A program made the translations under genes and the position numbers. DNA of 58,491 nt from NCBI GenBank assembly GCA_964368605.1, contig CAYJBP010000002.1, positions 1 to 58,491 on the forward strand. Direction: 5' to 3'. The notes beneath the pieces were generated by a model. It searched no databases. It was not told where the DNA came from and was given only the letters and a program-made list of their open reading frames with translations. Source of the stretch: an uncultured Peptococcaceae bacterium (GTDB lineage: Bacteria > Bacillota > Dehalobacteriia > UBA4068). Each line of letters starts with the position of its first letter. Position 1 is the first letter of the stretch. Positions 1 to 48,423 of this stretch are shown here, piece after piece.

Positions 1-3000
1 CCAATGGCGGCGGCAATGACCCCGATACCAATGGCGGCGGCAATAACCCCGATACCAATGGCGGTGGCAGTGATGATGATGAGATGCCGGATGTACCAAG
101 CAATAGCCCCGCCCCCAGCCCCAGAAATAGTACCGTTACTATGACTTTGGATTTTGAAGATGATAGTAGGGATTTGGAGCTTGAGGTTGTAATTGGTGAT
201 GTCTATACTATTGATCGGATTGCTAATAATACTGTTAGCGATTTAGATAATTTAGCCAATAAAATTTTGCCCCAAAGCGATGGCCCTGCCGGCGCTTGGC
301 ATTTATTTGGTAAATGGACAGATAACTGGGAAAATTTCTATTCTCCGGAAGCTCCTGATAACAGAGGTACTCTTACTGTTCCCAGCCGCGACTTCACCCT
401 AGAAATTGTTGAAACTCTATTGCCTTTGCCTCAATTAAGCTCTGTTAATTTCAGCTATGAGCAGGTTCTTGCCGGCGAAGGTACATCAACCAGCCCTTAT
501 CTTTTATTAGTGGGCGGAACTTATCAAATTTTCCCCAGATCTACCCAGCCTTTACCCGATAGCCGCATTATTGGTAGCGAAATGTGGCGCGAATTCAGCG
601 GCACAGACTTATATAGCTTTGTTGGTAATCCCAGCACCGGTTATTTTGATGGCGGCACTAATCCCTATTTAACCAGCCAAGGCTATGTGGACGAAAATGG
701 CAATCATTCCGTTTTTGTTAAAGCCGAAAAAACAGGCACAACAGGCAGTATTGCCCTTTCTACCTTCGATCCTAAATATAGTAATGATGGTCGTTGGGAT
801 AGAAGTATTTATCTTCATATCATAAATCCGATCACCGATTTGAAATTTAATGATAGCCTTAATCAAGTTCAATATGATAAAACCATATCTTTAGAAGATT
901 ATCTTACCTTTAGCCCCCAAGATACCAGCGAAACCGCTATTAAATGGGAAGTAGTAAGCAGCACCGATGCCAATGTATCTATTGATGCCAATGGCAATTT
1001 ATATACCGGCGCTAGCGCCGGCATGATCACTGTTAAGGCTACCGCAACCGGCTATGGCCAAGATGCTGACGGCAGTATTAAGGCAGGCATTATCAGTGCC
1101 GAAATTACTATTGATGCTACCCGTGATCCCGATATTTACAATATTACTTTTGACCCGATGGGCGGCAGCTTTATTGATGCCAGCCAGGCAACTGCCCAAA
1201 CCAATAATCAAGGCTATATAACTAGCTTGCCCCAACTTGCAGATCGCAATGCTATGTTGTTTAGCGGCTGGTATCTCGATCCCGGCTATAATGTTCGTTT
1301 TAGCACCGATACCTTGATTACCAATGACTCAACCATCTATGCCGGTTGGGTACAAGGCAATTATGCCACCGTTGAATTCGAGGCCAATCCTCCTGCCGGC
1401 GGTTCGGCAACAGCAGCTCCGCAATTTAAAACTATTGCCAATGGCACTGCTTTTGGTACTTTACCAATCGATATCCCTACCGCCAAAGATAGTAATGGTA
1501 AGGCTTTAGTTTTTGCCGGTTGGTATCCTAATGCCGATGGCAGTGGCGAAGCTTTACAATCGTCTACAATTATTAATACAAATATCACCTATTATGCCAA
1601 ATGGGAAGCATCACGCTCTATTAATGGCGATATCGGCTGGTCGGTAATCGAAGAGGTTCTTGATTTAGGCTCGCCCGATCCTGCCCAAAACCCAACCACC
1701 CCCAATAGCGGTGTTACTCAAAATTGGACAGAAGAGGGTGCTGCCGATGAAGATGCCGGCGATCGTGATTTGCGCTACTTTGAAGTAGAAATTAGCGGCG
1801 AACCTTTAGCCGTTGGCTCGGATATTATTATTGTATTAGATAAATCTACATCGATGCATAATGGTTCTCGCTGGGAGGATGCCGTAGCAGCCGTAGATAC
1901 CTTGGCCGAACAACTTTTTGATGTTGATGAGAATGGTCAAGATAATCCCGATAATTATAATCGGGTGGCTTTAGTTCAGTTTTCCGGCAATACCCGCAGC
2001 AGCTTTAATTTCCAAAACAGTTGGGCCGGCTTTAATAATAATTTTGATCGCGAGCAACCCAATTATAGCGCTCAAGGCTCTACCCCCCCTGCCGCAGATG
2101 ATAATCGTGCCGCAGGCGATGGTACCAATTATACTACCGCTTTACGCCAAGTAATCGAAATTATCGGCTCGCGTTCGGCTGCCGACAGTGCTCGCCCGGT
2201 ACATGTAATCTTTGTTTCTGACGGCAATCCCGAAACTTCGCGCAGCGCCCATGATCAAATCGTACAAGATGCTGCTGGTAATTCCTATGGCCCGGTAGTA
2301 GATAGCAGTGATACCGCCATAGAGTTTTCCCGTACCGACCAAAATGTTGTCGAAGCCCTTGGCTTAACCGGCGAAAAAGAGGCAGCTACTTTAATCGCAA
2401 TGGGCATTAATAGCTATGCGGTTGGTATCGAGCTTGCTCCCAGCAAATATTTAACAGCCATTGCCAATGGCCAGCAAGATAATGTGTTTACCAATGTAGA
2501 TAGCCAAGAACTTACCAATGTATTAACCCAAATCGGCGATTCGGTTATCGCCTATAGTCAACAAGCCCATATCACTTATAATATAGCAACAGCCTTCCCC
2601 AATCATGCTATTATCGATGACGCAGGCAGCGATGCCGAAAAACCGGCCTGGGAAAATGGTATTGGCCTTAATGATCGCCCAGCCAATAATGATTTTGCCA
2701 ACTCCTCGGCCAGCTATCAAATCAATGGCAGCACTATTACCTTTGATGTTAACTCTATACCCGAAGTGGGCTTAACCTTAGGCTTTTATGCGGAATATAC
2801 CCCGGAAGATCCCCCGGTTCCGCCTACACCACCTACTCCGCCCAATCCGCCCGTAAAGCCGCCCACACCGCCTACCATTCCCGATGAGCCTCCGACAGTA
2901 ATCGAAGAGCCGCCAACACCCTTAGCCGGTGGCGTGAATATCGAGGAAGCAGATACCCCCTTGGGCGAAACCCCAACCATTATCATCACCGAAGAAACTC

Positions 3001-3113
3001 CGCTAGGCCAATTGCCGCAAACAGGGGCAATCGGTATTAGCGCCGGCAATCTATTATTGGCTGCCCTAAGCGCCTTAGCCATCTTTGGTTTAAGCTTTAA
3101 AAAACGTAAATAA
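1..3113 (+). CDS. LPXTG-anchored surface adhesin with vWA domain. 5'-partial: the frame is open from base 3, so the true start lies upstream of the window
   Basis: The frame of ORF 84..3113 stays open back to base 3 and encodes 9-aa tandem repeats NGGGN(D/N)PDT. No signal peptide follows the Met at 84. Ig-like Big_2-type segment 'AIKWEVVSSTDANVSIDANGNLY'. Two Listeria-Bacteroides-type repeats ('FDPMGG...SGWY', 'FAGWY...YYAKW'). vWA MIDAS 'DKSTS' plus 'GTNYT' and 'SDGNP'. Pro-rich stalk. C-terminal 'LPQTG' + hydrophobic segment + 'KKRK'. Confidence 0.85.
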   Translation, partial: NGGGNDPDTNGGGNNPDTNGGGSDDDEMPDVPSNSPAPSPRNSTVTMTLDFEDDSRDLELEVVIGDVYTIDRIANNTVSDLDNLANKILPQSDGPAGAWHLFGKWTDNWENFYSPEAPDNRGTLTVPSRDFTLEIVETLLPLPQLSSVNFSYEQVLAGEGTSTSPYLLLVGGTYQIFPRSTQPLPDSRIIGSEMWREFSGTDLYSFVGNPSTGYFDGGTNPYLTSQGYVDENGNHSVFVKAEKTGTTGSIALSTFDPKYSNDGRWDRSIYLHIINPITDLKFNDSLNQVQYDKTISLEDYLTFSPQDTSETAIKWEVVSSTDANVSIDANGNLYTGASAGMITVKATATGYGQDADGSIKAGIISAEITIDATRDPDIYNITFDPMGGSFIDASQATAQTNNQGYITSLPQLADRNAMLFSGWYLDPGYNVRFSTDTLITNDSTIYAGWVQGNYATVEFEANPPAGGSATAAPQFKTIANGTAFGTLPIDIPTAKDSNGKALVFAGWYPNADGSGEALQSSTIINTNITYYAKWEASRSINGDIGWSVIEEVLDLGSPDPAQNPTTPNSGVTQNWTEEGAADEDAGDRDLRYFEVEISGEPLAVGSDIIIVLDKSTSMHNGSRWEDAVAAVDTLAEQLFDVDENGQDNPDNYNRVALVQFSGNTRSSFNFQNSWAGFNNNFDREQPNYSAQGSTPPAADDNRAAGDGTNYTTALRQVIEIIGSRSAADSARPVHVIFVSDGNPETSRSAHDQIVQDAAGNSYGPVVDSSDTAIEFSRTDQNVVEALGLTGEKEAATLIAMGINSYAVGIELAPSKYLTAIANGQQDNVFTNVDSQELTNVLTQIGDSVIAYSQQAHITYNIATAFPNHAIIDDAGSDAEKPAWENGIGLNDRPANNDFANSSASYQINGSTITFDVNSIPEVGLTLGFYAEYTPEDPPVPPTPPTPPNPPVKPPTPPTIPDEPPTVIEEPPTPLAGGVNIEEADTPLGETPTIIITEETPLGQLPQTGAIGISAGNLLLAALSALAIFGLSFKKRK

Positions 3114-15492: not shown

Positions 15493-16053
15493 TTAAGATA
15501 AGGGCAGATTTTGACCCAGCTTAGTAGCCTCGGCTACGGCCGGATGGAATTGGGCTTCGCCTTGCTCGGCTAGGCCAATGGCGATAATTTCTCCTAAATT
15601 ATCTAAAGCCAAATAGTCGCAGATTAAACCATAATGGCCAATAATGCTGTCGGTAATAAATTCATCCTGATTAGCTGCCGTACAGATAAGGCCTAAATAT
15701 TTTAACTTTGCATTGGCACCTTCTCTATCGCGCTTAAAATGGGGCTTAGCATAAAGGCGATCAATAGCCAATTTTAGCTGGGCACTAAAGCCAAAATAAT
15801 ATAAAGGTGTGGCCAAAACCAAGGCCTCGCTTTGCTCTAGGGCTTGGTATATTTGCTGCATATCATCATTTTGGCAACAATTATCATTATTACGGCAATA
15901 ATCGCAGGCCGTACATGGGTTGATTTTAAGCTTGGCTAAATCAAAAATCTTAACTTGATGCCCGGCCGATATTGCCCCTGCCGCAAAGGCATCGGCTAAA
16001 AAACGGCTATTAGATGCCGGCCTTGGGCTTGAACTTAAAAGGGTTATTTGCAT
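15493..16053 (-). CDS. NADPH-dependent FMN reductase / iron-sulfur flavoprotein family
   Basis: 'ITLLSSSPRPASNS', Cys cluster 'CTACDYC', 'LVLATPLYYF'. Confidence 0.75.
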   Translation of the reverse strand: MQITLLSSSPRPASNSRFLADAFAAGAISAGHQVKIFDLAKLKINPCTACDYCRNNDNCCQNDDMQQIYQALEQSEALVLATPLYYFGFSAQLKLAIDRLYAKPHFKRDREGANAKLKYLGLICTAANQDEFITDSIIGHYGLICDYLALDNLGEIIAIGLAEQGEAQFHPAVAEATKLGQNLPLS

Positions 16054-16065: not shown

Positions 16066-16500
16066 CTAGTCGATTTCTAAGCGCTTATTAATATGGCGCA
16101 CAAACTCTAAAGCGCTTTTAAAGGATTGACGCTGTTTATTATCTTGCCAAACAATAGTTCCTTGCCAGGAAGTATTTTGCCTGGTAATAATACTTAATTC
16201 CAGGGTAGCTAAGGCTCCTAATTGTTCTTCTACAAAATCTTTGCTCATCAAATCGCCTTCAATTTCGGCTGCCGGTGGGCGAGAGGGCAATTCCTGCTGA
16301 GCAAAGCTGCGTCGCCTTTGAAAAGCACGTGGAAAATTTTGTTTATCCAAAAGCGCATCAATCATCAGAATGAAATTAAGTAAGTCGTCAAAAATAAGCG
16401 TATTTTCTAAACGCTGGCCAAAAACACGTCCACCGATTTGGCCATTATTATTTTTATCAATACAAATACGCAAAACCGCATTAACATGATTTAATTTCAT
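16066..16500 (-). CDS. Hypothetical protein (144 aa), co-transcribed after pilT
   Basis: RBS GAGAGG. 19-nt gap from the pilT stop and 12-nt gap to the next gene. No recognisable motif. Confidence 0.5.
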   Translation of the reverse strand: MKLNHVNAVLRICIDKNNNGQIGGRVFGQRLENTLIFDDLLNFILMIDALLDKQNFPRAFQRRRSFAQQELPSRPPAAEIEGDLMSKDFVEEQLGALATLELSIITRQNTSWQGTIVWQDNKQRQSFKSALEFVRHINKRLEID

Positions 16501-16519
16501 GATAAAAACCTCTCTAAAT

Positions 16520-17587
16520 TTAAGTGATAGAAGCTAGTCTTTTTTGCATTTGTTCGCTATTTGTGCTATGATGAACCGCCATATTAGGGGCGATAATGCC
16601 ATTTTTAACCATATTAAATAGATAAGTATCCATAGTAACCATGCCTTCGGCTGCCGAAGAATAGATAACGCTATCAATTTGATGAGCCTTTGATTCACGG
16701 ATCAGATTGCGAATAGCACTATTGGCCACCATAATCTCAAAAGCCGGCACAATGCCACCTGTTGGCTTAGGTATTAATTGCTGCGAAACCACCCCTTGCA
16801 CAACCATGGCCAACTGCACCCTGATTTGCTGCTGCTGCTGGGGCGGAAAACTATCTACAATGCGGTCGATGGTATTGGCTGCCCCAATGGTATGCAAGGT
16901 TGATATTACCAAGTGGCCGGTTTCGGCGGCGGTAATGGCGGCCTTAATTGTTTCATAATCGCGCATTTCGCCCAAAAGAATTACATCGGGCGCTTGGCGC
17001 AGCGCTGCCCTTAAGGCTTTTTCATAGCTCATGGTATCACTTGATAATTCTCTTTGCGTAACCGCACTTTTAATATGACGATGTAAATACTCGATTGGAT
17101 CTTCGATAGTGATAATATGGGCGCTGCGATTATTATTAATTTCGTTAATAAGGCAAGCTAGGGTTGTTGATTTACCGCAACCTGCCGGCCCGGTTACTAA
17201 AACCAAACCTTTATTAAAATTAGCAAAATTGATAACCGCATCGGGAATATGCAATTGCTCACGATTGGGTAATTCGAAGGATACTATTCTGATTACCGAG
17301 GCCAAAGAACCACGCTGACGCATTGTATTTACCCTAAAGCGGGAAAGGCCGGGCAAAGAAAAAGAAAAGTCATCATCGCCTTCGATTAGCAAACGCTCCA
17401 TCGAGCGATTATCGGCTAAAACATAAATCTCCTCCACTAAGGCTTGAATTGTTTCCGGCAAAAGGCGCTCGCCATCTTCTTTTAAAATCTGATTATTGGC
17501 TTTATAAGCAATCGGCAAGCCGGCAATTAGCAAAATATCTGCTGCATTATGGGCTACCGCCTGCTTAAGAATTTCCATCATGTTCAT
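16520..17587 (-). CDS. pilT: PilT-type type IV pilus ATPase (retraction-ATPase family)
   Basis: Walker A 'GPAGCGKST', 'IITIEDPIEY', 'ILLGEMRD', 'AAETGHLVISTLHT', 'AIRNLIRE'. The ATG at 17587 overlaps the upstream stop (ATGA). Confidence 0.9.
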   Translation of the reverse strand: MNMMEILKQAVAHNAADILLIAGLPIAYKANNQILKEDGERLLPETIQALVEEIYVLADNRSMERLLIEGDDDFSFSLPGLSRFRVNTMRQRGSLASVIRIVSFELPNREQLHIPDAVINFANFNKGLVLVTGPAGCGKSTTLACLINEINNNRSAHIITIEDPIEYLHRHIKSAVTQRELSSDTMSYEKALRAALRQAPDVILLGEMRDYETIKAAITAAETGHLVISTLHTIGAANTIDRIVDSFPPQQQQQIRVQLAMVVQGVVSQQLIPKPTGGIVPAFEIMVANSAIRNLIRESKAHQIDSVIYSSAAEGMVTMDTYLFNMVKNGIIAPNMAVHHSTNSEQMQKRLASIT

Positions 17588-18087
17588 AGAACGGGAATCT
17601 CCTCTCCAAGTTCTTCGGTCCATACCGGTAGCGAGTCAAAAATAATTACCTCGCCTACTTCGCTTACCATTTGCCACTGAAAAATTTGCCATCTGTTTTC
17701 CTGGTCGGGTGGTAAAAGTACCATATCTAATTGCAAATGTTGCGTATCGTTTAAAGGCAAGTCGGCATAAATAGCCAAGCCTTGCTCATAATCGCTAATA
17801 TAAATATTTTCGCCATAAGCCTCCTGCAAGGCGGCTTCTAGAGCTAAGGCATCGGGCTTTAAGCCTTCTTCCCAGCTAGCGGTTGCCGTGGCCATAATTT
17901 GATTAGCCATGCCATCAAGCTGATAGTATTCGGTAGCAGCCTGAGCTGTTTTTTGGCTAAGGCGTAAATCGGCCTGTGCCGAGGATAATGCCAAAACGGC
18001 AAAAATGGTTAAGCCTAATACCAGTAAAACGGTTAATAAGGTTACACTGCCGATGCCAAATAAAGGCGAAGCTTTTTTATCGCTCAT
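17584..18087 (-). CDS. N-terminally anchored pseudopilin/PilX-like protein (167 aa)
   Basis: Single N-terminal hydrophobic helix 'GSVTLLTVLLVLGLTIFAVLAL'. TAATG overlap with the upstream gene. RBS GGAGGTG. Confidence 0.55.
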   Translation of the reverse strand: MSDKKASPLFGIGSVTLLTVLLVLGLTIFAVLALSSAQADLRLSQKTAQAATEYYQLDGMANQIMATATASWEEGLKPDALALEAALQEAYGENIYISDYEQGLAIYADLPLNDTQHLQLDMVLLPPDQENRWQIFQWQMVSEVGEVIIFDSLPVWTEELGEEIPVL

Positions 18088-18488
18088 TATAACACCTCCG
18101 GCTTATAAATATTGGTATCTAGGGTGTAAATAATATTTTCGCCCTCTATAACTTCGATTGATAAATCATATAAATAAGGGGAATTTTGCTCAAGCGTATA
18201 GATTAAATCGAAAGTATCCGGCGAGCCCGATTTTTGCCAATCCTTATCATAATATATATGCATGGGCTCATTGGTAAACTGAATAGTTGTGGATTGGCCA
18301 AAGTTGGTTAAACTTTCGGCCACTTCTTGGGCGGCAAAAACGGCTTGATTTAGGTTTTTGCTATCCTGAATATCCTGGTAAGCAATAGCAAATAGGCTAA
18401 TACAAACCGTAGAACAAAGCACAAAAATGGTTAAGGCCAATACCACTTCGGTTAAAAAGATGGTAGAGCGAGAATTAGTACGCTTCAT
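18087..18488 (-). CDS. Pseudopilin-like protein with a degenerate class III leader (133 aa)
   Basis: 'RSTIFLTEVVLALTIFVL' resembles G/FTLxE but lacks the Gly. TAATG coupling on both sides. Confidence 0.55.
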   Translation of the reverse strand: MKRTNSRSTIFLTEVVLALTIFVLCSTVCISLFAIAYQDIQDSKNLNQAVFAAQEVAESLTNFGQSTTIQFTNEPMHIYYDKDWQKSGSPDTFDLIYTLEQNSPYLYDLSIEVIEGENIIYTLDTNIYKPEVL

Positions 18489-18985
18489 TATATTCCCCCC
18501 TCGGCCATAATTTGACTGTGAATGGTATAAAATGCCTGCTCGATATGGCCATCCGCAAATTGAAAATCGATGGTAAGCAGGCCATCTTCCAGATAAAAAG
18601 CAAGGGATTGCATATCCATAAGAGGAGTGCCAAAACTAGGCTCTACCTCGTATCCTTGCTCTACAAACTGCTCATAAAGTTTGCCTTCATGGCAGTATAA
18701 ATAGGTGATATATTGATAGCCATCATAATTTTGTTTTAAAAGTAAAGCCTCGGTATCAAAAAGCTGGCCAACTTCCAGCGAATCGGCCAAATCGGCGCGG
18801 CGTATTTGATTGCTAAAATAGGCCAAAGCCACGCGGCTTTGATCATTTTGATTGGAGGTTTCGACAATATTATGATAAATAGAGCCACCAAAAACGACTA
18901 GGCCGATTGATAAAAAAAGGAAAATCGCACCCAGCATAAATACGGCTATACTATCTATTTTGAAGCGATGTTTATCTTTAAACAT
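18488..18985 (-). CDS. N-terminally anchored small protein of the pilus-like operon (165 aa)
   Basis: One TM 'IAVFMLGAIFLFLSIGLVVFGG' followed by a beta-rich domain. Translationally coupled. Confidence 0.5.
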   Translation of the reverse strand: MFKDKHRFKIDSIAVFMLGAIFLFLSIGLVVFGGSIYHNIVETSNQNDQSRVALAYFSNQIRRADLADSLEVGQLFDTEALLLKQNYDGYQYITYLYCHEGKLYEQFVEQGYEVEPSFGTPLMDMQSLAFYLEDGLLTIDFQFADGHIEQAFYTIHSQIMAEGGI

Positions 18986-19000
18986 AGCGGCTCCTTTCCA

Positions 19001-19321
19001 TTATTGTAGGGGGAAAACATCAATAGATGGCATTAAATTTTCGCCAATATACTGATAATGGACAACAAACCGATCGGTATCCGGCCTAATGCCATAATTA
19101 TCGATTAAGTATTGTAGGTTTTGGGCATAAGCCCCTTCTAAAGCATAGCATTGCACGGCTGCCCTTTGCACTGAAGAAAGGGTAATATTAAGTGCTTCTT
19201 CATAGGCGGCCTCCTGCGAGGAGCTTGTGGCTGCAATAAAAGCCACAAAAAGGGCAGCACTTAAAATTAGATAAGTTAAGGGCTTAAGCAGGCTTTTAAC
19301 TTTATTTTCTTTTAAGAACAT
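19001..19321 (-). CDS. N-terminally anchored small protein of the pilus-like operon (106 aa)
   Basis: One TM 'LTYLILSAALFVAFIAA'. First gene after the platform protein. No G/FTLxE motif. Confidence 0.5.
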   Translation of the reverse strand: MFLKENKVKSLLKPLTYLILSAALFVAFIAATSSSQEAAYEEALNITLSSVQRAAVQCYALEGAYAQNLQYLIDNYGIRPDTDRFVVHYQYIGENLMPSIDVFPLQ

Positions 19322-19370
19322 AAATTTCTCCTATTTTAATGGCCAACTTAAATGATTAATTATGCCGGCC

Positions 19371-20426
19371 TTAACCACCGATAGAGTTCATCATTGCCAA
19401 TAAAGGTAGCATTACCGAGAGCAAAAGCATGCCCACTACTACCACCAAAAATACCACCAACATCGGCTCGATTCTGGCCATAATCTTGGCTAAAATATCT
19501 TCGGTTTGATTATGGCAACGGCGTGCCAATTCGGCCATCACATTTTCTGATGAACCGGAGCGGAAACCGGTGGCGATTAAGCCAACCTCCAGGCCGCTAA
19601 AAATGCCGGTTTTTTCAACTGCGGTGGCAAAGCTGGCCCCTTCTTCCATCAGGCCGGCGCATTTGTCGATGGCGGCCTTCATCTTAGTATCTGCAACTAA
19701 GCTTTGGGCTTTTTCCAGGGCTTGATTAATATTTAAGCCGCTGGCCAAGGATAAAGACATAGCCGAAGCAAAATGCTCACGGGCTACCGAAATGCCTAAT
19801 TTACCACGGAAAAATATTTTATCGGCCATGGCACGCAAGCGCTCTTGCCCTGTTACCGAGCGAGAATTGATAAATAAATAGGCAGCTAACAGTAATAATA
19901 AAACGGCAAATACAATAGCGCCTTGCTGAGTAAATACGCCTAAATCGAGCAAAGAAGCTGCCCAGGGGCTTAAATCCGAACCCAATTGCTGCAATACCTG
20001 CTGGAACACCGGCAAAACCTGGGTAACCAACACAAAGGTAACCACGGCAATAATTACAGCCAACCAAGAAGGATAAACAATAACCTGACGCATGCTTTGA
20101 CGCAATTCATGCTCTTGTTCATAATGGCTGGCTAAAGCGGCAAGCACCTGCTCTAGGCGGCCGGTATCCTCGCCGATTTGAACCATGCGCAAAGAATGCT
20201 CGGGAAAGCAGCCGGCTTTTTCTAAGGCCGCATTAAAAGGAGCGCCAATTTCTAATTCGTCGCCGATTTTTTCTAAAAGCAGTTTTTCTCTTTGCGATGC
20301 GGCATCGGCTGCCAAAAGCGAAATGCCGTCTACCGGCAAAATCCCTGCTTTAAGCATCATCGAAATCTGCACAAAAAACATCGATAATTCTTCAGCGGTT
20401 AATAAGTTATTTTGCTTATTCGTCAT
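19371..20426 (-). CDS. Type II secretion / type IV pilus platform protein (GspF/PilC family)
   Basis: Two T2SSF-type repeats ('MLKAGILPVDGISLL...', 'SLASGLNINQALEK...') and three TM segments. Confidence 0.85.
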   Translation of the reverse strand: MTNKQNNLLTAEELSMFFVQISMMLKAGILPVDGISLLAADAASQREKLLLEKIGDELEIGAPFNAALEKAGCFPEHSLRMVQIGEDTGRLEQVLAALASHYEQEHELRQSMRQVIVYPSWLAVIIAVVTFVLVTQVLPVFQQVLQQLGSDLSPWAASLLDLGVFTQQGAIVFAVLLLLLAAYLFINSRSVTGQERLRAMADKIFFRGKLGISVAREHFASAMSLSLASGLNINQALEKAQSLVADTKMKAAIDKCAGLMEEGASFATAVEKTGIFSGLEVGLIATGFRSGSSENVMAELARRCHNQTEDILAKIMARIEPMLVVFLVVVVGMLLLSVMLPLLAMMNSIGG

Positions 20427-20452
20427 AATAAATCCTTCCTTAATAGTATAAA

Positions 20453-21208
20453 TTATTCTACGGCAGCTATATATTCAAAATCTTCGGCATAGGGAAAAAT
20501 TTGATCCAGCTTGCCATGAGCCACAATTCTTTGATTGGCAATTCCAATCGGATGACAAGAGGTAATGGTTACCGCCGAATAGCCTTGACTATAAATCGGC
20601 CCCCAATCATCCTGTTCTACAATATATGTTTCTTGGTATAAATAGCGATAAATATTATTGGCATCTGCTAAGTAAATATAATCGCCATCGACTAGGGTAT
20701 CGATATAATAAAAGGGTGCATTATCGGTAATTATCCCTCCTATGCTGGTATTACGATGCCCGGCAATGCTAACATTGCGATTAATGCCTTCGCCCGGCAA
20801 TTGCGAATAATCATATAAACCTGCTCCATCGCGCAAATCATCTTCGGTAACCCCGGCTTTAAGTGGCAAAACCTTGCCCAGCTTAGGGATGACCAATACT
20901 ACCTGCCCTTCCTGATAAGTTTGCCGATCGGCGGTGATAAACAGCTTATCGGTGGGCCAGTTTAGGGTGGGATCTGTTACTTCTTCTATTTCAGGTTGAG
21001 CGATAACGGGTTCTTCTGGCGCATCTTCTAAAACTACCACTTCTTCGGCAGGCGGCGGGATGATGATAGCCGGCATGGCGCCGCCAAAATCATCGGCTTG
21101 CGAGCGAGAATTTTCGTAGAAGATAATCCCACTATAAATGGCCGTGGCCAAAAGCAAGCATATACCATAAGTAGCAAGACCATTGCGTAAATATTTTTTA
21201 TTAGCCAT
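20453..21208 (-). CDS. Sortase (transpeptidase) with N-terminal membrane anchor
   Basis: 'SIAGHRNT' (His), 'VTITSCHP' (Cys), downstream 'NQRIVAHG' (Arg). 2-nt gap from the regulator gene stop. Confidence 0.85.
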   Translation of the reverse strand: MANKKYLRNGLATYGICLLLATAIYSGIIFYENSRSQADDFGGAMPAIIIPPPAEEVVVLEDAPEEPVIAQPEIEEVTDPTLNWPTDKLFITADRQTYQEGQVVLVIPKLGKVLPLKAGVTEDDLRDGAGLYDYSQLPGEGINRNVSIAGHRNTSIGGIITDNAPFYYIDTLVDGDYIYLADANNIYRYLYQETYIVEQDDWGPIYSQGYSAVTITSCHPIGIANQRIVAHGKLDQIFPYAEDFEYIAAVE

Positions 21209-21210
21209 AA

Positions 21211-22455
21211 TTAATCCTCTAAAAATGTTTGTTCCAATTCCAATTGTTGCAATTTATAAGCAATTTTAAGGAAATTTTTGCGATGACGTTGATAAAATGT
21301 ATTAACAATGCGATCTAAAACCAAAATACCATCTTCATAGTTGGCAGTAGGCAGCATCATTACAAATTGGGCGCCACTATAGCGAGAAATGATATCGCCA
21401 CGCCTTAAATTATCCCTTAAAACATAAAGTAATTGTTCCATTGTGGTGTTAAGCAGGCCTAAAGCTGGCGTGCAGCCATTAGGCAAGGAAATGGTAATTA
21501 GAGCCACATGCACGCAAGAGCCTTGCCTGGCCGCACGGCGTGCCTCTAGGCGATAGGCTTCTCTAAAAAAGCCGTATTCGCAAACAAAAGCACCGGGGCG
21601 CGAGGCTGTTTCTCGCAAATCATTTTGAATGATGCCCAAATCTGTTTCCAGATTTTTTTGCTCTTTCATAATTTCCTGATACAAAGACCGTAATTCCTCA
21701 GAGGGCTTAACCCCTAAATTGCGGTAGAGCAAATCGGTGGCTGTTTCGTAGTGGTTTAGGGCAGCCATGGAATTACCCAGCTTTAATAAAGCCTTAATTT
21801 GAAGAGCATGTAATTCCTCGTCATAGGGCTCTACCTGGATTGCAGCTAGGCTGATATCGGCTACAATATCATATTGCTCATCTTCTTCGAGTAAAGAGGC
21901 ATAGGTCATCACCCCCTTGATATACAAAGAATGATAATAAGAAGCCAAGGGAATAACCCATAATTGGTCGGCCAATTTCATTAAAAAGTCGTGCTGATAT
22001 AGGGCGATGGCCTCGGCATATAATTCTTTGCGTTTTTCGCGCTTTAAATCGGGCTCGGCTGCTTTTTGGATAAGCAAGGCAAAATCCTCGGCATCCACAT
22101 GGCAATCGATAGAGCGATTCCAAGAATAAGAGCCACGCTGCGAAAGAATTAGCTGCGGTTCATCACCAATTAAGGGCAATAAAACTGCCCTGGTTCGATA
22201 AAGTAAGGTTTTTAAAGCACTGGCCGGGTTTTGGCTATCCTCATCAGGCCACAAAACATCGATTAACTCTTTTTGGGGTATATTGCGGTCACGATTAACA
22301 ATTAAGTAGGCCAGCAAATTCCACATTTTTTGCGAGCGGCTAATATCATCACCCAAAACCACATTGCCAATATAAATTTTAAAATCACCGAGCATTTCAA
22401 CCCTAATCCCGGAATTGATATCAAAAAAAGTAGCGGGCGGTGAGTTTTTTGCCAT
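21211..22455 (-). CDS. SARP/BTAD-family transcriptional regulator fused to a degenerate GGDEF domain
   Basis: OmpR-like winged helix ('KMWNLLAYLIVNRDRNIPQKELIDVLWPDE'). BTAD/TPR-like region ('EELHALQIKALLKLGNSMAALNHYETATDLLYRNLGVKPSEELRSLYQEI'). In the C-terminal GGDEF fold the signature is 'SGAQF' ('RRGDIISRYSGAQFVMMLPT'). Confidence 0.75.
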   Translation of the reverse strand: MAKNSPPATFFDINSGIRVEMLGDFKIYIGNVVLGDDISRSQKMWNLLAYLIVNRDRNIPQKELIDVLWPDEDSQNPASALKTLLYRTRAVLLPLIGDEPQLILSQRGSYSWNRSIDCHVDAEDFALLIQKAAEPDLKREKRKELYAEAIALYQHDFLMKLADQLWVIPLASYYHSLYIKGVMTYASLLEEDEQYDIVADISLAAIQVEPYDEELHALQIKALLKLGNSMAALNHYETATDLLYRNLGVKPSEELRSLYQEIMKEQKNLETDLGIIQNDLRETASRPGAFVCEYGFFREAYRLEARRAARQGSCVHVALITISLPNGCTPALGLLNTTMEQLLYVLRDNLRRGDIISRYSGAQFVMMLPTANYEDGILVLDRIVNTFYQRHRKNFLKIAYKLQQLELEQTFLED

Positions 22456-31980: not shown

Positions 31981-33060
31981 ATGCCCGATTTAAAAAGAAA
32001 GAAGATGTTGATAGTTGATGATATTCCCATTAATAGGGTTATATTAGAAGACTTGTTTTGTGAAGATTATGAAATTATCGAGGCCGAAAATGGGCTAGAA
32101 GCTTTAGCCAAAATTCAACAGTATAAAAATGATTTGGCTATTGTTGCCTTAGATATTGTGATGCCCAAAATGGACGGTTTTGGTGTTTTAAAGCAGATGA
32201 ATGATAGCGGCCTTATTGATAGTATCCCGGTTGTGATGATTACCGGCGAAAATGATGATGAAAATATCTTTATGGCCTATGATTTAGGGGCTGCCGATTT
32301 AATCAATAAGCCTTTTAATCCTAATATTGTTATTAAGCGGGTAAACAATGTAATTTCATTATATTCGCATAAAGAGAATTTAGAAATTCAATTGCGCCTG
32401 CAAAAAGAGCAATTGGAGGATCAGGCTAAAAAACTTAAATTAAGCAATCAATTTGTAATTGATGCTCTTTCGACCACGGTAGAATTTAGGGATTCGGAAT
32501 CGGGCGATCATATTAAAAGAATTCGCAGTTTAACCAGGCATTTATTAAATGCGGCTCGTAAAGATTATGATTTAAACGAAGACCAAATAGATATGATTGT
32601 TAATGCTTCGGCTATGCATGATATTGGTAAAATAGCAATTGCCGATGCTATTTTGCTTAAACCCGGGCGTTTAACCAAAGAAGAATTTGAGATTATGAAA
32701 ACTCATACTATTCGTGGCTGCGAGATTTTGCAGAGTTTAAACTATGCGCAGGAAGAGGATTATTATAATTATTGCTATGAAATTTGTCGCCATCATCATG
32801 AGCGTTGGGATGGTAGCGGTTATCCTGATGGTTTAAAGGGCGACGAAATTTCGATTTGGGCGCAAGCAACGGCCTTGGCCGATGTTTATGATGCCCTAAC
32901 TTCTAAGCGTGTTTATAAGGATGCCTATAGCCATGAAAAAGCGGTAAGTATGATTTTAAATGGCGAGTGCGGCATGTTTAATCCCCAGCTACTACGTTAT
33001 TTTAATGAGGTAGAGTATATACTTTGCCAACAGGTGCAAGACACTAAACTTAAGTTTTGA
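31981..33060 (+). CDS. Response regulator with HD-GYP domain (c-di-GMP phosphodiesterase type)
   Basis: REC domain ('LIVDDIPINR', 'LDIVMPKMDG'). HD-GYP motifs 'HDIGKI' and 'HHERWDGSGYP'. Confidence 0.9.
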   Translation: MPDLKRKKMLIVDDIPINRVILEDLFCEDYEIIEAENGLEALAKIQQYKNDLAIVALDIVMPKMDGFGVLKQMNDSGLIDSIPVVMITGENDDENIFMAYDLGAADLINKPFNPNIVIKRVNNVISLYSHKENLEIQLRLQKEQLEDQAKKLKLSNQFVIDALSTTVEFRDSESGDHIKRIRSLTRHLLNAARKDYDLNEDQIDMIVNASAMHDIGKIAIADAILLKPGRLTKEEFEIMKTHTIRGCEILQSLNYAQEEDYYNYCYEICRHHHERWDGSGYPDGLKGDEISIWAQATALADVYDALTSKRVYKDAYSHEKAVSMILNGECGMFNPQLLRYFNEVEYILCQQVQDTKLKF

Positions 33061-45225: not shown

Positions 45226-46275
45226 TTATATTTTGCCAATTAGTTGCCAAATTTTAAATAGTTGATATGCATAATTATTTAATTCTTGGCTATATTTAAT
45301 GCTAAATTCGCTTAGGGATAGGCGCAAATTTACCAGGGCATTTTCTGCCTGCGGATACTGCCGGCAATAAGCTTTAATCGTTTTTACGGCAATTTTTAAA
45401 TGCTCTAAATCTAAAATAGCTAATAGCTTAGCAGGTTTTTTAGCATCCTCAATAGTACAATCTTTTAATAGGTTAATGCTGTCTATCAGGCCATTAATAT
45501 AAACTGCTTGGCAAAAATACTGATTAAAATTATTGCTTTTTAAATCGCTAATAGCTAAAAATTGCTCAATAGTTTGCTTTAAAAAATGGTCGGCAAACTC
45601 CCTGCCTTCTTTAAAATCATGGCTGGCGCTGGGCTGGCCTATTCGATAATGATAGCCAATATCAGGCATAATGCCTAAACTTTGCGCCCCTTTTAAAATT
45701 TCCAGCGCAAAATAGGTATCCAATCCATAGCCACCACAGCAATTAGGATTAGGAAAATGATCTTTAATCTTATTATCAAAAAGGCTGCTTGCTATTAATT
45801 TGCCCCATATGCTGCGAAAGAAGGGGAAATAATAGGCAAAAGCCAGGCCAAAATTAGGCTTTTTAATAATAATTTCTTCGGGCATAGCACGGATTAAACC
45901 AAGATTTTGGCCGTTTTGGTCGATGCCTGCTACCGAGCAGCAACCGATATCCAGATTATTCTTTTCACAAAATTCTACTTGCTTAGCTAAAAAATCATTT
46001 GCCCAAATATCATCGCCATCAATAACGGTTAAATAGGTGGCCATTTTTGCCAATTCTTGATATTGATATAAAAAACCGGCCTGCCTGCTATTATTAAGAA
46101 TAATTTTGATATGCTTATCCCCTGCTACAAGATCTGTTAGCAGGGGATAAGTTATATCATTTGCTTCTATATAATAGTTAAAATCAGTATAACTTTGCTT
46201 TTTTACACTTTCGATGCAAGCTGCAATATGCTCATTTTTACGCATTATTTGGGAAAAAACAATCACTTTAGGCAT
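45226..46275 (-). CDS. Family 2 glycosyltransferase
   Basis: 'SVKKQSYTDFNYYI' and 'VIDGDDIW' (DxD). It overlaps the upstream GT2 gene by 13 nt. RBS GAGGTGG. Confidence 0.75.
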   Translation of the reverse strand: MPKVIVFSQIMRKNEHIAACIESVKKQSYTDFNYYIEANDITYPLLTDLVAGDKHIKIILNNSRQAGFLYQYQELAKMATYLTVIDGDDIWANDFLAKQVEFCEKNNLDIGCCSVAGIDQNGQNLGLIRAMPEEIIIKKPNFGLAFAYYFPFFRSIWGKLIASSLFDNKIKDHFPNPNCCGGYGLDTYFALEILKGAQSLGIMPDIGYHYRIGQPSASHDFKEGREFADHFLKQTIEQFLAISDLKSNNFNQYFCQAVYINGLIDSINLLKDCTIEDAKKPAKLLAILDLEHLKIAVKTIKAYCRQYPQAENALVNLRLSLSEFSIKYSQELNNYAYQLFKIWQLIGKI

Positions 46276-47183
46276 ATTTCCACCTCGTAAACTGCTAAAT
46301 TTGCTTTTTCTGTATTGCTTAAGTAGGGGCTTTGTTTGAATAGTTGATAATTATCAGCCAATATTGATAAAATTTGCGGCCTTAATGCTTGGCAATCGTT
46401 TAAATTATGCTTGTCGATTTTGCTCAGCATCGATAGCATAAAAGAGCAATAATAATAGCTAAATGCCTCAAATTGATTAGGAAAACGGCTGCATAGAAAA
46501 GCATGACGCTTACCATAGGCCTGAATATATTCGGCTAAAATTGCATTGTTGAGCAGGGAATAGTCATCAGTCCAGGCCGAATTATTGCCGCTATGGCGGC
46601 TAATATGATATTTCAGCAAGCCATGATAGGCAACTATATTAGCCTTGGCTAATAAGCGATAAGTTAACCAAATATCATCAAATTGGCTATGGATTGGAAA
46701 TTCCAGCCCCTTAAATAATTGCTTTCGCCATAGTTTTGCCGGCAGGCCTACTGTATATTTTTGGCGTTTAAGTAATTCCAAAACAGCATTTTCGGCATTA
46801 AAGTGTTCTTTTTGGGCGAATTGGCGACCGCTAATACCGCAAATTGCGCAATCGGCTGCATTTTCTTGGATTAAATCAGCTAAAAACTGTAAAAAATCAG
46901 GCTCGGCATGGTCGTCATCATCAAAAAAGGTGATATACTGCCCTTTAGTCAATGCTAATCCTTGCTTGCGAGCGGCGGCAATGCTCGTTTGCGGCTGATG
47001 ATAAAGCTTAATACGGCTATCTTGTTTTTGATAATCGGCGGCAATTTGGGGGCTTAAATCACTAGATCCATTTTCGATAATTATTAATTCAAAGTTGGTA
47101 TATGTCTGTTTTAGCAGGCTATTTAATGCGCGTGGTAAAAAATGCTGCCGATTATGGCTGATTAAAATCACCGAGATTTCCAT
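46263..47183 (-). CDS. Family 2 glycosyltransferase
   Basis: 'ISVILISHNRQHFLPRALNSLLKQTYTNFELIIIENGSSD' and 'FFDDDDH'. It starts 3 nt after the spoIIIAH stop. Confidence 0.85.
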   Translation of the reverse strand: MEISVILISHNRQHFLPRALNSLLKQTYTNFELIIIENGSSDLSPQIAADYQKQDSRIKLYHQPQTSIAAARKQGLALTKGQYITFFDDDDHAEPDFLQFLADLIQENAADCAICGISGRQFAQKEHFNAENAVLELLKRQKYTVGLPAKLWRKQLFKGLEFPIHSQFDDIWLTYRLLAKANIVAYHGLLKYHISRHSGNNSAWTDDYSLLNNAILAEYIQAYGKRHAFLCSRFPNQFEAFSYYYCSFMLSMLSKIDKHNLNDCQALRPQILSILADNYQLFKQSPYLSNTEKANLAVYEVEICLK

Positions 47184-47186
47184 AAA

Positions 47187-47831
47187 TTATTCCCGATTGA
47201 TAATAATCACATTTTCATAGTCCACCCCGGTAACCCCGGCCACCGCTTCGGCTATTTGAGCAGATTTTAAATCATCCATGATAATGGAAACCACCACTGT
47301 AACAGTGCCCTCGCCAATCATCACTACCGTTTCGCCAAAATTTTTGGCGGCCAACACATTTTCGGTCATCAGCTCATATTCCAGATTACGGGCTATATTT
47401 AGTTTTTGTTTGGTGGCCGTATCACGCATCTCTACCGAGGAATGAGGATCGTCTACAATGCTCTGTAGCAGCTCTAAGGCCTCGGCACGCACTTTTTCTC
47501 GCTCTAGGCGATACTCGCTATAAAAAGAATCAAGCTCTTCTATGGCCTCTGTTTCGGCCATGGCAGCTTCTGTATCAGGGGCTATCTCTTGATTGGCCGC
47601 TTGATCAGCCTGAGCATCGTTTAGTTGCTCCTTTGGCTCGGGTATGGTTTGCGGATTTAGCAACATGCCTGCTACAGGAGCTTCGGCCGGTAAAGAGCCT
47701 TGGATTTGACTATGTACAATATCATAGATAAAAAGTCCGATGCTTAACATGACAATAATTGTGGTAATTAATTTGATTTTGCTTAGCCTTTTTTTCTCTC
47801 GCCCACCATTAAATTTTACTTTTTTCATCAT
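47187..47831 (-). CDS. spoIIIAH: Stage III sporulation protein AH
   Basis: Last gene of the conserved spoIIIA order, with an N-terminal TM and 'FYSEYRLEREKVRAEALELLQSIV' in a YscJ/FliF-like C-terminal region. Confidence 0.85.
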   Translation of the reverse strand: MMKKVKFNGGREKKRLSKIKLITTIIVMLSIGLFIYDIVHSQIQGSLPAEAPVAGMLLNPQTIPEPKEQLNDAQADQAANQEIAPDTEAAMAETEAIEELDSFYSEYRLEREKVRAEALELLQSIVDDPHSSVEMRDTATKQKLNIARNLEYELMTENVLAAKNFGETVVMIGEGTVTVVVSIIMDDLKSAQIAEAVAGVTGVDYENVIIINRE

Positions 47832-47849
47832 ATTGCCTCCTTAAAAAAA

Positions 47850-48419: not shown

Positions 48420-48423
48420 AATA

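What the first reader, a model, noticed from the sequence alone, without database searches (positions are those of the whole stretch)
16066..22455. Sortase-linked, pilin-less type IV filament-like operon: candidate undescribed surface-assembly system
Ten minus-strand genes are packed with gaps of 0-49 nt, several of them with ATGA/TAATG start-stop overlaps. In order they are a SARP/BTAD-GGDEF* regulator, a sortase, a GspF/PilC platform, four small N-anchored proteins (106, 165, 133 and 167 aa), a PilT-type ATPase, a 144-aa unknown and an FMN reductase-like flavoprotein. Type IV filament machines and sortase-dependent covalent pili are normally separate systems. Here a sortase sits between the regulator and the platform gene in what looks like one transcription unit. 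The window contains no PilB/GspE extension ATPase, no prepilin peptidase and no protein with a canonical G/FTLxE class III leader. The only obvious sortase substrate in the window is the LPQTG/vWA adhesin about 17 kb away.
Basis: partly seen in the sequence, partly recalled or inferred. Interest (0 to 1): 0.78.

Follow-up and report, generated by a model that had tools for sequence, protein, structure and literature searches.

The report
Divergent type IV filament operon with sortase
This is a real, widely conserved but apparently undescribed gene cluster of gut Clostridia that joins a stripped-down type IV pilus-like machine (one PilT-type motor, one platform, four unusual pilin-like proteins) to a regulator and, in about half of the cases, to a sortase that probably anchors a large adhesin.

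Summary
The order regulator, sortase, platform, four small proteins, PilT ATPase, 144-aa protein recurs in more than 40 distinct loci of Oscillospiraceae and related Clostridia at only 40-55% protein identity. It is not a chance juxtaposition.

"Pilin-less" is wrong. The four small proteins are divergent pilin-like proteins. One folds as a pilin "lollipop". One carries a class III-like leader with the conserved Glu5 but a degenerate cleavage site. The other two resemble ComGF/GspJ and GspK/ComGG.

The sortase is a frequent partner, not an obligatory one. In an unbiased sample, 11 of 30 modules have this sortase and 4 more have a different sortase next door. The same regulator-sortase pair also occurs without the machine. 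It then lies beside large LPQTG adhesins like the one at window 3-3113.

The near-constant partner of the machine is a secreted transglutaminase-like enzyme, which this window lacks. The regulator keeps a c-di-GMP I-site next to a dead GGDEF motif.

My best reading is a c-di-GMP-controlled adhesion regulon that combines a sortase-anchored adhesin with a new, minimal type IV filament variant. I found no paper or curated family that describes it.

The parts
21211..22455 (-). REG: SARP-type transcription regulator (winged helix + BTAD) with a C-terminal degenerate GGDEF domain. The active-site motif is SGAQF, and an RxxD I-site (RRGD) lies 5 residues upstream.
   Evidence: Pfam BTAD 2.3e-18, Trans_reg_C 1.2e-5, GGDEF 6.4e-4 below cutoff. 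RxxD is kept and GGDEF is degenerate across 76 homologues. Orthologues head the T4F-containing loci and the sortase-only loci.
20453..21208 (-). SRT: membrane-anchored sortase of a divergent subfamily. Catalytic His151, Cys218 (TITSC) and Arg227 are intact.
   Evidence: PF04203 1.6e-19 and TIGR01076 65.5 bits, above the 39.35 cutoff. All class models (A-F) fall below their cutoffs; class E scores 70 against 160. The catalytic residues are invariant in 20 homologues. PDB sortases of all classes score only 22-47 bits.
19371..20426 (-). GSPF: PilC/GspF-type inner-membrane platform, 351 aa, with two T2SSF domains.
   Evidence: PF00482 1.5e-37 with 2 stretches. It scores below the cutoffs of the GspF, HofC, PilC and ComGB equivalogs.
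19001..19321 (-). Protein A (106 aa): small pilin-fold protein and candidate major subunit. It has no G-1/E+5 leader. The motif VQCYALEG is invariant.
   Evidence: AF2 pLDDT 87.6: helix 7-62, helix 69-76 and two strands. The best Foldseek hit is the T. thermophilus type IV pilin PilA4, at E 1.4, which is not significant. No Pfam or NCBIfam hit. 311 relatives in metagenomes, always located between GSPF and B.
18488..18985 (-). Protein B (165 aa): DUF4860, an N-anchored protein resembling the ComGF/GspJ minor pilins.
   Evidence: PF16152 5.9e-23. 36 of 36 orthologues hit DUF4860. ComGF is hit weakly by the window protein (0.0049) and by 4 of the 144 A-D proteins scanned together. Alignment.
18087..18488 (-). 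Protein C (133 aa): minor pilin resembling GspI/ComGE. Its class III-like N-terminus is RS-T|IFLTE. The Glu is conserved, but position -1 is Thr here.
   Evidence: ComGE 1.4e-5, below cutoff. Glu is nearly invariant and position -1 is variable in the family. 782 representative clusters. The recurrent weak hits (more than two members) of 149 relatives are all to pilin-class families: GspI 9, ComGE 7, ComGF 6, PilV 3, plus PilA 2 and N_methyl 1. The other weak hits are one- or two-member matches to unrelated families.
17584..18087 (-). Protein D (167 aa): GspK/ComGG/PilX-like protein. Its N-terminus is SPLFGIGSVTLLTVLLVL without Glu5. Its acidic C-terminal tail carries an LPVW-type motif.
   Evidence: Family alignment. 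Among the 144 A-D proteins scanned together there is one PilX_N hit and one ComGG hit. The assignment rests mainly on N-terminal similarity to known families and is inferred.
16520..17587 (-). PILT: PilT-family hexameric ATPase, the only T2SSE-type ATPase in the cluster and in the window. The AIRNLIRE motif is present.
   Evidence: TIGR01420 413.5 bits, above the 319.1 cutoff. Full-length match to A. aeolicus PilT at 325 bits, against about 90 bits to PilB/GspE.
16066..16500 (-). Z (144 aa): cytoplasmic protein made of two beta-beta-beta-alpha domains (signature RQNTSWQG...F.S.LE). It travels with the regulator rather than with the T4F genes.
   Evidence: AF2 pLDDT 79, pTM 0.73. No fold match and no Pfam or NCBIfam hit. 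It is present in sortase-only loci, and single-domain paralogues lie between adhesin and regulator genes.
3..3113 (+). Large surface adhesin (Flg_new repeats, Big_2, VWA) with the C-terminal sorting signal ...PLGQLPQTG + TM + KKRK. It is the probable substrate of the sortase. The gene is cut by the contig start.
   Evidence: The same type of signal, P(L/S)GxLPQTG, ends the large proteins encoded divergently 1.6-2.1 kb upstream of REG-SRT in about 14 other loci. The link in this window is inferred.

Best explanation
The region is one operon-like unit built from three modules that recombine across Clostridia.

1. Regulatory module. It consists of a SARP-type activator and the small protein Z. 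The activator's C-terminal GGDEF domain is catalytically dead but keeps the RxxD inhibitory site, so it probably senses c-di-GMP.

2. Anchoring module. This is a divergent but catalytically intact sortase. It probably attaches large LPQTG adhesins to the cell wall, here the vWA protein at 3-3113.

3. Filament module. This is a minimal, divergent type IV filament machine with a PilC/GspF platform, a single PilT-family ATPase and four pilin-like proteins.

Proposed mechanism:
- High c-di-GMP activates the regulator, which transcribes the operon.
- The PilT-type motor turns the platform.
- B, C and D form a GspJ/I/K-like priming or tip complex.
- The small pilin-fold protein A polymerises under that complex into a short pilus or endopilus.
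- None of this needs prepilin-peptidase cleavage, because the cleavage-site residue is not conserved and no peptidase gene is linked.
- In parallel, the sortase fixes the adhesin in the wall, so both products serve attachment.

Shown: gene content, conservation, modularity, the PilT identity of the ATPase, the pilin-like fold of A, the pilin-class leader of C, the intact catalytic residues, and the I-site.

Inferred: c-di-GMP sensing, the roles of A-D, filament formation, the adhesin as substrate, and the adhesion function.
For: - Gene calls and domains.
- Conserved order REG-SRT-(TGA)-GSPF-A-B-C-D-PILT-Z in 39 loci, plus the window and L007.
- PilT identity.
- Protein A has a pilin lollipop fold at pLDDT 87.6, and its top Foldseek hit is a type IV pilin.
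- Protein C has the leader [KR]S-x|LFLxE with a near-invariant Glu, and its recurrent weak hits are confined to pilin-class families (GspI, ComGE, ComGF, PilV, PilA, N_methyl).
- B is DUF4860 with weak ComGF hits, and D has a GspK/PilX-like N-terminus.
- No PilB, PilD or other conserved gene occurs in the flanks of about 130 loci.
- The regulator has RxxD exactly 5 residues before the degenerate SGAQ[FY] in about 74 of 76 homologues.
- The sortase catalytic triad is invariant.
- LPQTG adhesins lie next to REG-SRT both with and without T4F genes.
- The window adhesin carries the same signal.
- A precedent exists for a PilT motor that promotes extension: PMC9815625, title and abstract.
Against: - No experiment exists and no filament has been seen.
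- The Foldseek match of A is not significant (E 1.4), and A has no conserved G-1/E+5.
- All pilin-family HMM hits are below curated cutoffs.
- Profile searches of B, C and D against PDB sequences found nothing.
- A PilT-family protein acting as the sole assembly motor is unusual. PilB, PilD and a canonical major pilin could be encoded elsewhere in the genome, which could not be checked. L128 has a canonical N_methyl pilin 2 kb upstream of its regulator.
- The window lacks the transglutaminase-like gene found in nearly all other modules, so this copy may work differently or be impaired.
- The adhesin is 17 kb away in this window.
Confidence: 0.55

Rival explanations
1. Hybrid machine. The sortase is a mechanistic part of the type IV filament system. 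It would covalently anchor or polymerise filament subunits, or tether the filament base to peptidoglycan. In other loci the transglutaminase-like enzyme would do the same job.
For: - The sortase sits between regulator and platform with gaps of 2 and 26 nt.
- The adjacency is conserved in 41 loci.
- Unrelated sortases lie next to other copies of the module: a true class B sortase in L162, a class F-like one in L099 and an unclassified one in L141/L160.
- Almost every module has at least one extracellular Cys acyl-transfer enzyme, either TGA or a sortase. The window and L007 have only the sortase.
- D has a semi-conserved C-terminal LPV[WFY][DE]G tail.
Against: - None of A-D ends in an LPxTG + TM + basic-tail signal.
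- The tail motif of D also occurs in sortase-free loci.
- 19 of 30 assessable modules lack this sortase, and 15 lack any adjacent sortase.
- The same REG-SRT pair occurs without T4F genes in at least 12 loci, next to classical LPQTG substrates.
Confidence: 0.13
2. T2SS-like piston of a monoderm. The A-D endopilus, driven by the platform and ATPase, pushes the secreted transglutaminase-like enzyme and/or the large adhesins through the thick wall. On this reading the module is a secretion or surface-display device rather than an adhesive pilus.
For: - The set A + B/C/D mirrors GspG + GspJ/I/K. GspI is the most frequent family hit among C relatives, and the best NCBIfam match of the platform is GspF.
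- The secreted TGA gene is almost always the first gene of the module.
- Adhesin genes are frequent neighbours.
Against: - The ATPase is PilT-like, not GspE-like.
- All family scores are below equivalog cutoffs.
- No T2SS has been established in monoderm Clostridia to my knowledge. Denise et al. found T2SS only in diderm Clostridia.
- The window copy lacks TGA yet keeps an intact module.
Confidence: 0.15
3. A divergent ComG-type competence pseudopilus for DNA uptake.
For: The weak HMM hits of the window proteins are to ComGE and ComGF. One homologue among the 144 A-D proteins scanned also hits ComGG. ComGB and ComGA models are matched below cutoff. The hosts are monoderm Bacillota.
Against: - ComGA scores 139 bits against a cutoff of 300, while PilT scores 413 against 319.
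- There is no ComGC-type major pilin with a class III leader.
- No comEA, comEC or comF genes recur in the flanks.
- The cluster is co-regulated with adhesin, sortase and transglutaminase genes, which does not fit DNA uptake.
Confidence: 0.08
4. Chance juxtaposition of unrelated genes, or a decaying remnant of a type IV pilus locus.
For: The window lacks the TGA, PilB and PilD genes and a canonical pilin. Tight spacing continues into unrelated downstream genes, namely the FMN reductase, an ECF S-component and MntP.
Against: - The same order occurs in more than 40 distinct loci at 40-55% identity.
- All ORFs are intact and the catalytic motifs are conserved.
- There are 311 metagenomic relatives of A and 782 representative clusters of C.
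Confidence: 0.02

Closest known systems
ComG competence pseudopilus of Bacillota (ComGA-ComGG)
   Same: It is a monoderm host system with a compact operon. That operon holds one short ATPase, one platform, one small major subunit and three or four minor pilins. The weak HMM similarity of the window proteins is to ComGE and ComGF, and one homologue also hits ComGG.
   Different: The ATPase is a PilT-family protein, not ComGA. It comes last in the operon, not first. No subunit has a cleavable G|FxxxE leader. No model reaches its cutoff. The partners are a transglutaminase-like enzyme, a SARP-GGDEF* regulator and often a sortase, rather than competence genes.
Type II secretion endopilus (GspE/F + GspG-K)
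   Same: It has a platform of the GspF type. Its subunit set resembles GspG plus the GspI/J/K tip complex, including one Glu5-bearing small subunit (C) and one Glu5-less cap-like subunit (D).
   Different: There is no GspE, no GspL/M/C, no secretin and no outer membrane. The motor is PilT-type. The scores are below the equivalog cutoffs.
Type IVa pili of Clostridia and streptococci (PilB, PilC, PilD, PilMNO, PilT, canonical pilins)
   Same: It has a PilC-like platform and a bona fide PilT-family ATPase with the AIRNLIRE motif, together with pilin-like subunits.
   Different: The cluster has no PilB, PilD or PilMNO in any of about 60 loci. The pilin leaders are degenerate.
c-di-GMP-controlled adhesion in Clostridioides difficile (type IV pili plus sortase-anchored adhesins). 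This comparison rests on my own knowledge and was not tested here.
   Same: A second-messenger signal co-induces a type IV filament and sortase-anchored surface adhesins.
   Different: In C. difficile the control is by riboswitches and the genes are dispersed. Here a protein regulator with a degenerate GGDEF domain heads a single cluster, and the filament machine is of a different, minimal type.
Systems in which one ATPase both extends and retracts: the V. cholerae MSHA pilus with PilT (PMC9815625) and the Tad CpaF motor (own knowledge)
   Same: They are precedents for a filament that works with a single motor or with a PilT-assisted motor.
   Different: MSHA still has a dedicated extension ATPase. 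Tad motors belong to another ATPase clade.

Membership tests
Type IV filament superfamily (generic definition of Denise et al. 2019: ATPase + IM platform + major pilin) | PilB/PilT/VirB11-class hexameric ATPase encoded with the system | tested here: met
   T2SSE 1.5e-45; TIGR01420 413.5 bits
Type IV filament superfamily (generic definition of Denise et al. 2019: ATPase + IM platform + major pilin) | GspF/PilC-type polytopic platform protein | tested here: met
   PF00482 1.5e-37, two domains
Type IV filament superfamily (generic definition of Denise et al. 2019: ATPase + IM platform + major pilin) | Subunits with a class III signal peptide (type IV pilins) | tested here: inconclusive
   C has a class III-like leader with conserved Glu5 but a variable -1 residue. 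A has a pilin-like predicted fold but no leader motif. All HMM hits are below cutoffs.
Type IV filament superfamily (generic definition of Denise et al. 2019: ATPase + IM platform + major pilin) | Prepilin peptidase (may be shared with another system) | tested here: not met
   None found in the window or in the conserved flanks of about 130 loci. The rest of the genome is not testable with these tools.
Type IVa pilus | Dedicated PilB extension ATPase plus PilT retraction ATPase | tested here: not met
   There is only one T2SSE gene, and it is PilT-type. PilB models score 123 bits against a cutoff of 676.
Type IVa pilus | PilM/N/O alignment subcomplex | tested here: not met
   No further conserved genes occur in or beside the cluster.
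ComG competence pilus | ComGA, ComGB, ComGC and ComGD-GG equivalogs | tested here: not met
   ComGA 139 bits against 300; ComGB 121 against 240; ComGE 25 against 49; ComGF 17 against 80; no ComGC hit.
Type II secretion system | GspE ATPase, GspF, GspG-K, GspL/M/C, secretin | tested here: not met
   GspE 133 bits against 630; GspF 166 against 424; only weak GspI hits in relatives; no other components.
Sortase (peptidase C60) | Sortase fold with the His / TLxTC Cys / Arg catalytic residues | tested here: met
   PF04203 1.6e-19; TIGR01076 65.5 bits, above 39.35. H151, C218 and R227 are invariant.
Class E sortase (the label given by some source annotations) | Score above the NF033747 cutoff; LAxTG substrates | tested here: not met
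   70.4 bits against a cutoff of 160. SrtE1 is among the weakest PDB matches at 21.9 bits. The neighbouring substrates carry LPQTG, not LAxTG.
Sortase-assembled (covalent) pilus | Class C sortase plus pilin subunits that carry LPxTG and a YPKN pilin motif | tested here: not met
   Class C scores 57 bits against a cutoff of 160. The window adhesin has no YPK(N) motif. There is a single large, modular adhesin rather than a set of pilin subunits.
SARP/AfsR-type regulator | OmpR-type winged helix followed by BTAD | tested here: met
   Trans_reg_C 1.2e-5, just below cutoff; BTAD 67.4 bits, above 22.1.
Diguanylate cyclase (GGDEF) | GG(D/E)EF active site | tested here: not met
   The motif is SGAQF here and degenerate in all 76 homologues. 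The RxxD I-site is retained. Pfam GGDEF scores 20.0 bits against 23.8.

The most novel reading that the evidence does not exclude
The module is a new class of Gram-positive surface filament. On this reading it has three unusual properties:
- A lone PilT-type motor assembles type IV pilin-like subunits.
- No prepilin peptidase is needed.
- An extracellular Cys acyl-transferase then cross-links the subunits covalently or fixes them to the wall. That enzyme is usually the transglutaminase-like protein. In this window it would be the sortase.

This would be a mechanistic hybrid of the two pilus paradigms, type IV and sortase-dependent, which are thought to be separate. Several observations fit this but do not prove it:
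- Nearly every module has a TGA or a sortase.
- At least three unrelated sortase lineages have been recruited independently.
- Protein A has invariant Gln and Cys residues in VQCYALEG.
Probability: 0.13. Interest if true: 0.9.

Novelty: new variant of a known kind. Interest (0 to 1): 0.62.

Why it matters
Type IV filaments are among the best-studied prokaryotic nanomachines. Censuses of them rely on HMMs for PilB-type ATPases and canonical pilins. This cluster is common in gut Clostridia, including cultured human commensals (Pseudoflavonifractor, Intestinimonas, Lawsonibacter), and in relatives from other metagenomes. It would probably escape such censuses, because its subunits do not match pilin models and its only motor is PilT-like.

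If it makes a filament, two things follow. A PilT-family ATPase can be the sole motor, and prepilin-peptidase processing is dispensable. Both touch open questions on how these machines assemble.

The constant transglutaminase-like partner, the recurrent sortase linkage and the c-di-GMP-type regulator also give a testable handle on how abundant but poorly understood gut anaerobes attach to surfaces or hosts. Several carriers are cultured type strains, so the predictions can be tested directly.

Tried and rejected
- Profile searches of the B, C and D families against PDB sequences gave no pilin hits. This is expected, because most crystallised pilins lack their N-terminal helix. I treat it as uninformative rather than negative.
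- Foldseek of Z against the PDB gave no credible match. A PilZ-like or other known regulatory fold could not be supported.
- The look-up of encoding contigs for window proteins returned "not on record". I therefore checked the window by selective Pfam scans instead.
- The DUF4860 (B) alignment was too divergent to scan the metagenome collection. I used protein A instead.
- The promoter and terminator scan found nothing above shuffle expectation and no intergenic terminator inside the cluster. The single-transcript claim therefore rests only on spacing.
- Clustering all unassigned flank ORFs to find further conserved partners (PilD, PilB, competence or sporulation genes) returned only antisense artefacts and variable adhesins.
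- I rejected the flavoprotein as a member of the system. It is present only in the window and its 88%-identical relative.
- I rejected "class E sortase" as a classification.
- I rejected a sortase-pilus backbone role for the adhesin, because it has no YPKN motif.
- I rejected A-D as classical sortase substrates, because they have no C-terminal sorting signal.
- Seven literature searches found no description of the cluster or of DUF4860.

Full report
**1. The observation**

- Pfam and NCBIfam confirm the assignments:
  - a regulator with Trans_reg_C, BTAD and a weak GGDEF match;
  - a sortase;
  - a two-domain T2SSF platform;
  - four small proteins, each with one N-terminal hydrophobic segment;
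  - a PilT-family ATPase (TIGR01420 413.5 bits against a cutoff of 319.1);
  - a 144-aa protein with no family;
  - an FMN_red flavoprotein.
- Only the 165-aa small protein hits a family, DUF4860.
- The intergenic distances are 2, 26, 49, 15, -1, -1, -4, 19 and 12 nt.
- The flavoprotein (15493-16053) lies outside the coordinates given.
- The ATPase most likely starts at 17587, giving an ATGA overlap with the preceding stop.
- No second T2SSE or T2SSF gene is in the window.
- None of the ten ORFs tested with two or more predicted TM segments (nine of them with five or more) is a prepilin peptidase.
- The LPQTG/vWA protein is real and is cut by the contig start.

**2. The arrangement is conserved**

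Sortase homologues at 40-55% identity are common in Clostridia MAGs. Three of them looked up in their contigs gave two loci with the same gene order and one with only the regulator and sortase.

A scan of one genome per species with the sortase alignment returned 77 loci. I built HMMs from the window and two distant loci. With them I found the order REG-SRT-TGA-GSPF-A-B-C-D-PILT-Z in about 40 of those loci. The carriers include:

- Pseudoflavonifractor capillosus ATCC 29799
- P. phocaeensis
- Lawsonibacter hominis
- Intestinimonas
- Harryflintia
- Marasmitruncus

TGA is a secreted transglutaminase-core protein of about 300 aa. Its Cys/His/Asp motifs are intact in 84 of 86 copies. Among loci with the filament module, only the window and its 88%-identical relative L007 lack TGA. 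The flavoprotein follows the cluster only in those two.

**3. The cluster is modular**

A second architecture holds the regulator, the sortase and Z-type proteins but no filament genes. It occurs in at least 12 loci, in Lachnospiraceae and some "Peptococcaceae" MAGs.

In both architectures, a large protein is often encoded divergently 1.6-2.1 kb upstream of the regulator. It is 650-1400 aa long and ends in P(L/S)GxLPQTG + TM + basic tail. The passenger domains of these proteins are unrelated to each other. The window's vWA protein ends in PLGQLPQTG, the same type of signal, although it lies 17 kb away.

For an unbiased view of the filament module I scanned metagenomes with protein A. That gave 311 relatives, of which 80 loci were kept.

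- TGA-GSPF-A-B-C-D-PILT is essentially invariant.
- After deduplication, 30 modules can be assessed:
  - 11 have the orthologous sortase upstream of TGA;
  - 12 have the regulator directly next to TGA;
  - 7 have neither.
- Four of the 19 "sortase-less" modules carry a different sortase next door:
  - a true class B enzyme right after PILT in L162 (169.8 bits, above the 153.75 cutoff);
  - a class F-like one after Z in L099;
  - an unclassified one upstream in L141 and L160.

The sortase link is therefore recurrent and has arisen more than once, but it is dispensable. The regulator is the element shared by the sortase/adhesin module and the filament module.

**4. The four small proteins are pilin-like**

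- **Protein C.** It starts with a basic, Ser-rich stretch followed by LFLxE[LV][IL].
  - The Glu is nearly invariant.
  - The residue at the position of the prepilin cleavage-site Gly varies among the 76 scored members: S 20, R 17, G 10, T 8, N 7 and others. It is Thr in the window.
  - The Harryflintia/Marasmitruncus lineage has a canonical KSG|LFLxE.
  - The family is large, with 782 representative clusters.
  - Among 149 of them, the recurrent weak family hits are all to pilin-class models: GspI 9, ComGE 7, ComGF 6, PilV 3, plus PilA 2 and N_methyl 1. The remaining hits are one- or two-member matches to unrelated families.
- **Protein B.** It is DUF4860. The window protein gives a weak ComGF hit, and 4 of the 144 A-D proteins scanned together also hit ComGF.
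- **Protein D.** Its N-terminus is SP.G[IV]G..[ST][IL].TVLLVL, without Glu5, as in GspK, PilX and ComGG. The pooled scan gave one PilX_N hit and one ComGG hit.
- **Protein A.** It has no family hit.
  - AlphaFold2 with 35 homologues predicts a 56-residue N-terminal helix, a short helix and a beta hairpin, at pLDDT 87.6. This is the pilin lollipop.
  - Its best PDB fold match is the full-length type IV pilin PilA4 of Thermus, but at a non-significant E of 1.4.
  - Its membrane segment is poorly conserved, whereas VQCYALEG.YP in the helix is invariant.

"Pilin-less" is therefore not correct. The accurate statement is that no subunit has a canonical, conserved cleavage site. No prepilin peptidase gene is linked in any locus either.

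**5. The motor**

The ATPase aligns over its full length with A. aeolicus PilT at 325 bits, including AIRNLIRE. It scores only about 90 bits with PilB and GspE. It is the only ATPase in every copy of the module. A PilT that promotes extension has a precedent in the MSHA pilus (PMC9815625).

**6. The regulator and Z**

In 76 regulator homologues the GGDEF signature is replaced by SGAQ[FY] or similar. An RxxD motif (RRGD in 50, RKGD in 10, RQGD in 5) sits exactly five residues upstream. That is the position of the c-di-GMP inhibitory site in active cyclases (the interpretation rests on established knowledge of GGDEF I-sites). I infer a c-di-GMP-responsive SARP activator.

Z is predicted as two beta-beta-beta-alpha domains with no known fold relative. 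Single-domain paralogues sit between the adhesin and regulator genes. Z follows the regulator, not the filament genes.

**7. The sortase**

Its catalytic His, Cys (in TLTSC/TITSC) and Arg are invariant. It reaches only the generic sortase cutoff. It is about equally distant from all structurally known classes. The "class E" label in some records is not supported.

**8. Mechanism and rivals**

The best-supported reading is a c-di-GMP-controlled adhesion regulon. It combines a sortase-anchored LPQTG adhesin with a minimal type IV filament, which is primed by a B/C/D tip complex and built from A by a platform and a lone PilT-type motor.

- **Hybrid machine.** The sortase or transglutaminase would act on filament subunits. 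This is not excluded and is the most novel option. Classical sorting signals are absent from A-D, and half of the modules have no adjacent sortase.
- **T2SS-like piston for TGA or adhesins.** This remains possible.
- **ComG-like DNA-uptake pilus.** This fits poorly, because ComGA and ComGB score below cutoffs, the motor is PilT-type and no competence genes are linked.
- **Chance.** This is excluded.

**9. Novelty**

No paper in the library mentions DUF4860 or this gene combination. NCBIfam has no models for A-D or Z. The census of Denise et al. requires an HMM-detectable major pilin even for its "generic" class. Systems like this one were therefore probably missed.

I rate it a new variant of a known kind, the type IV filament superfamily. 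The main caveat is that PilB, PilD and canonical pilins elsewhere in the genomes could not be checked with the tools at hand.

Noticed in passing
window 16066-16500; L026 8171-8335, L050 5040-5264 and many other loci: Z contains a previously unnamed domain of about 45 aa with a beta-beta-beta-alpha fold (signature RQN[AT][ST]WQG..W....F[RK]S.LEL). It occurs twice in Z and once in proteins of about 60 aa that lie between the adhesin and regulator genes. It has no Pfam, NCBIfam or PDB relative.
   Followed up: partly
L001 10871-11782, L050 10519-11430 and about 85 other loci; absent from the window: A secreted transglutaminase-core/DUF553 protein with intact Cys/His/Asp motifs is the first gene of nearly every filament module. 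Only the window and L007 lack it, and both have the sortase.
   Followed up: partly
L162 12799-13554; L099 13542-14291; L141 212-1099; L160 141-1088: Sortases unrelated to the window's subfamily sit directly beside filament modules that lack the orthologous sortase. One is a true class B enzyme, one is class F-like and one is unclassified. This suggests repeated recruitment.
   Followed up: partly
window 17584-17640 (C-terminus of protein D) and D orthologues: The acidic C-terminal tail of D carries a semi-conserved motif, L[PS]V[WFY][DEQ]G (SLPVWTEE in the window). The motif is also present in sortase-free loci. Its meaning is unknown.
   Followed up: no
window 19130-19160 (protein A residues 56-63): VQCYALEG is invariant in 35 homologues and includes the only conserved Cys and a Gln in the exposed half of the long helix. 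This is unexplained. It could be a cross-linking or contact site.
   Followed up: no
L128 4192-4644: A canonical type IV pilin (N_methyl 5e-9, KQNGFTLMEVL) lies 2 kb upstream of the regulator of one sortase-free module, next to an LPKTG protein. Some systems may therefore also use canonical pilins.
   Followed up: no
window 45226-52154 and 52278-56074: A spoIIIA-like operon (Spore_III_AE and SpoIIIAH confirmed) and spore-germination genes (Spore_permease confirmed) are present. The organism is an endospore former.
   Followed up: partly
window 31981-33060: A response regulator with an HD_5/HD (HD-GYP-type) output domain is a likely c-di-GMP phosphodiesterase. This shows that c-di-GMP signalling genes exist in this genome fragment.
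   Followed up: no
P0180 (1836 aa; hit of protein C): A large protein matches residues 99-132 of protein C eleven times. This may be a repeat built from the C-terminal hairpin of C, or it may be a compositional artefact.
   Followed up: no
L011 9695-10612 (same MAG as L007): The closest relative of the window's organism encodes a second, longer paralogue of this sortase subfamily (306 aa). It has no regulator or filament genes nearby.
   Followed up: no
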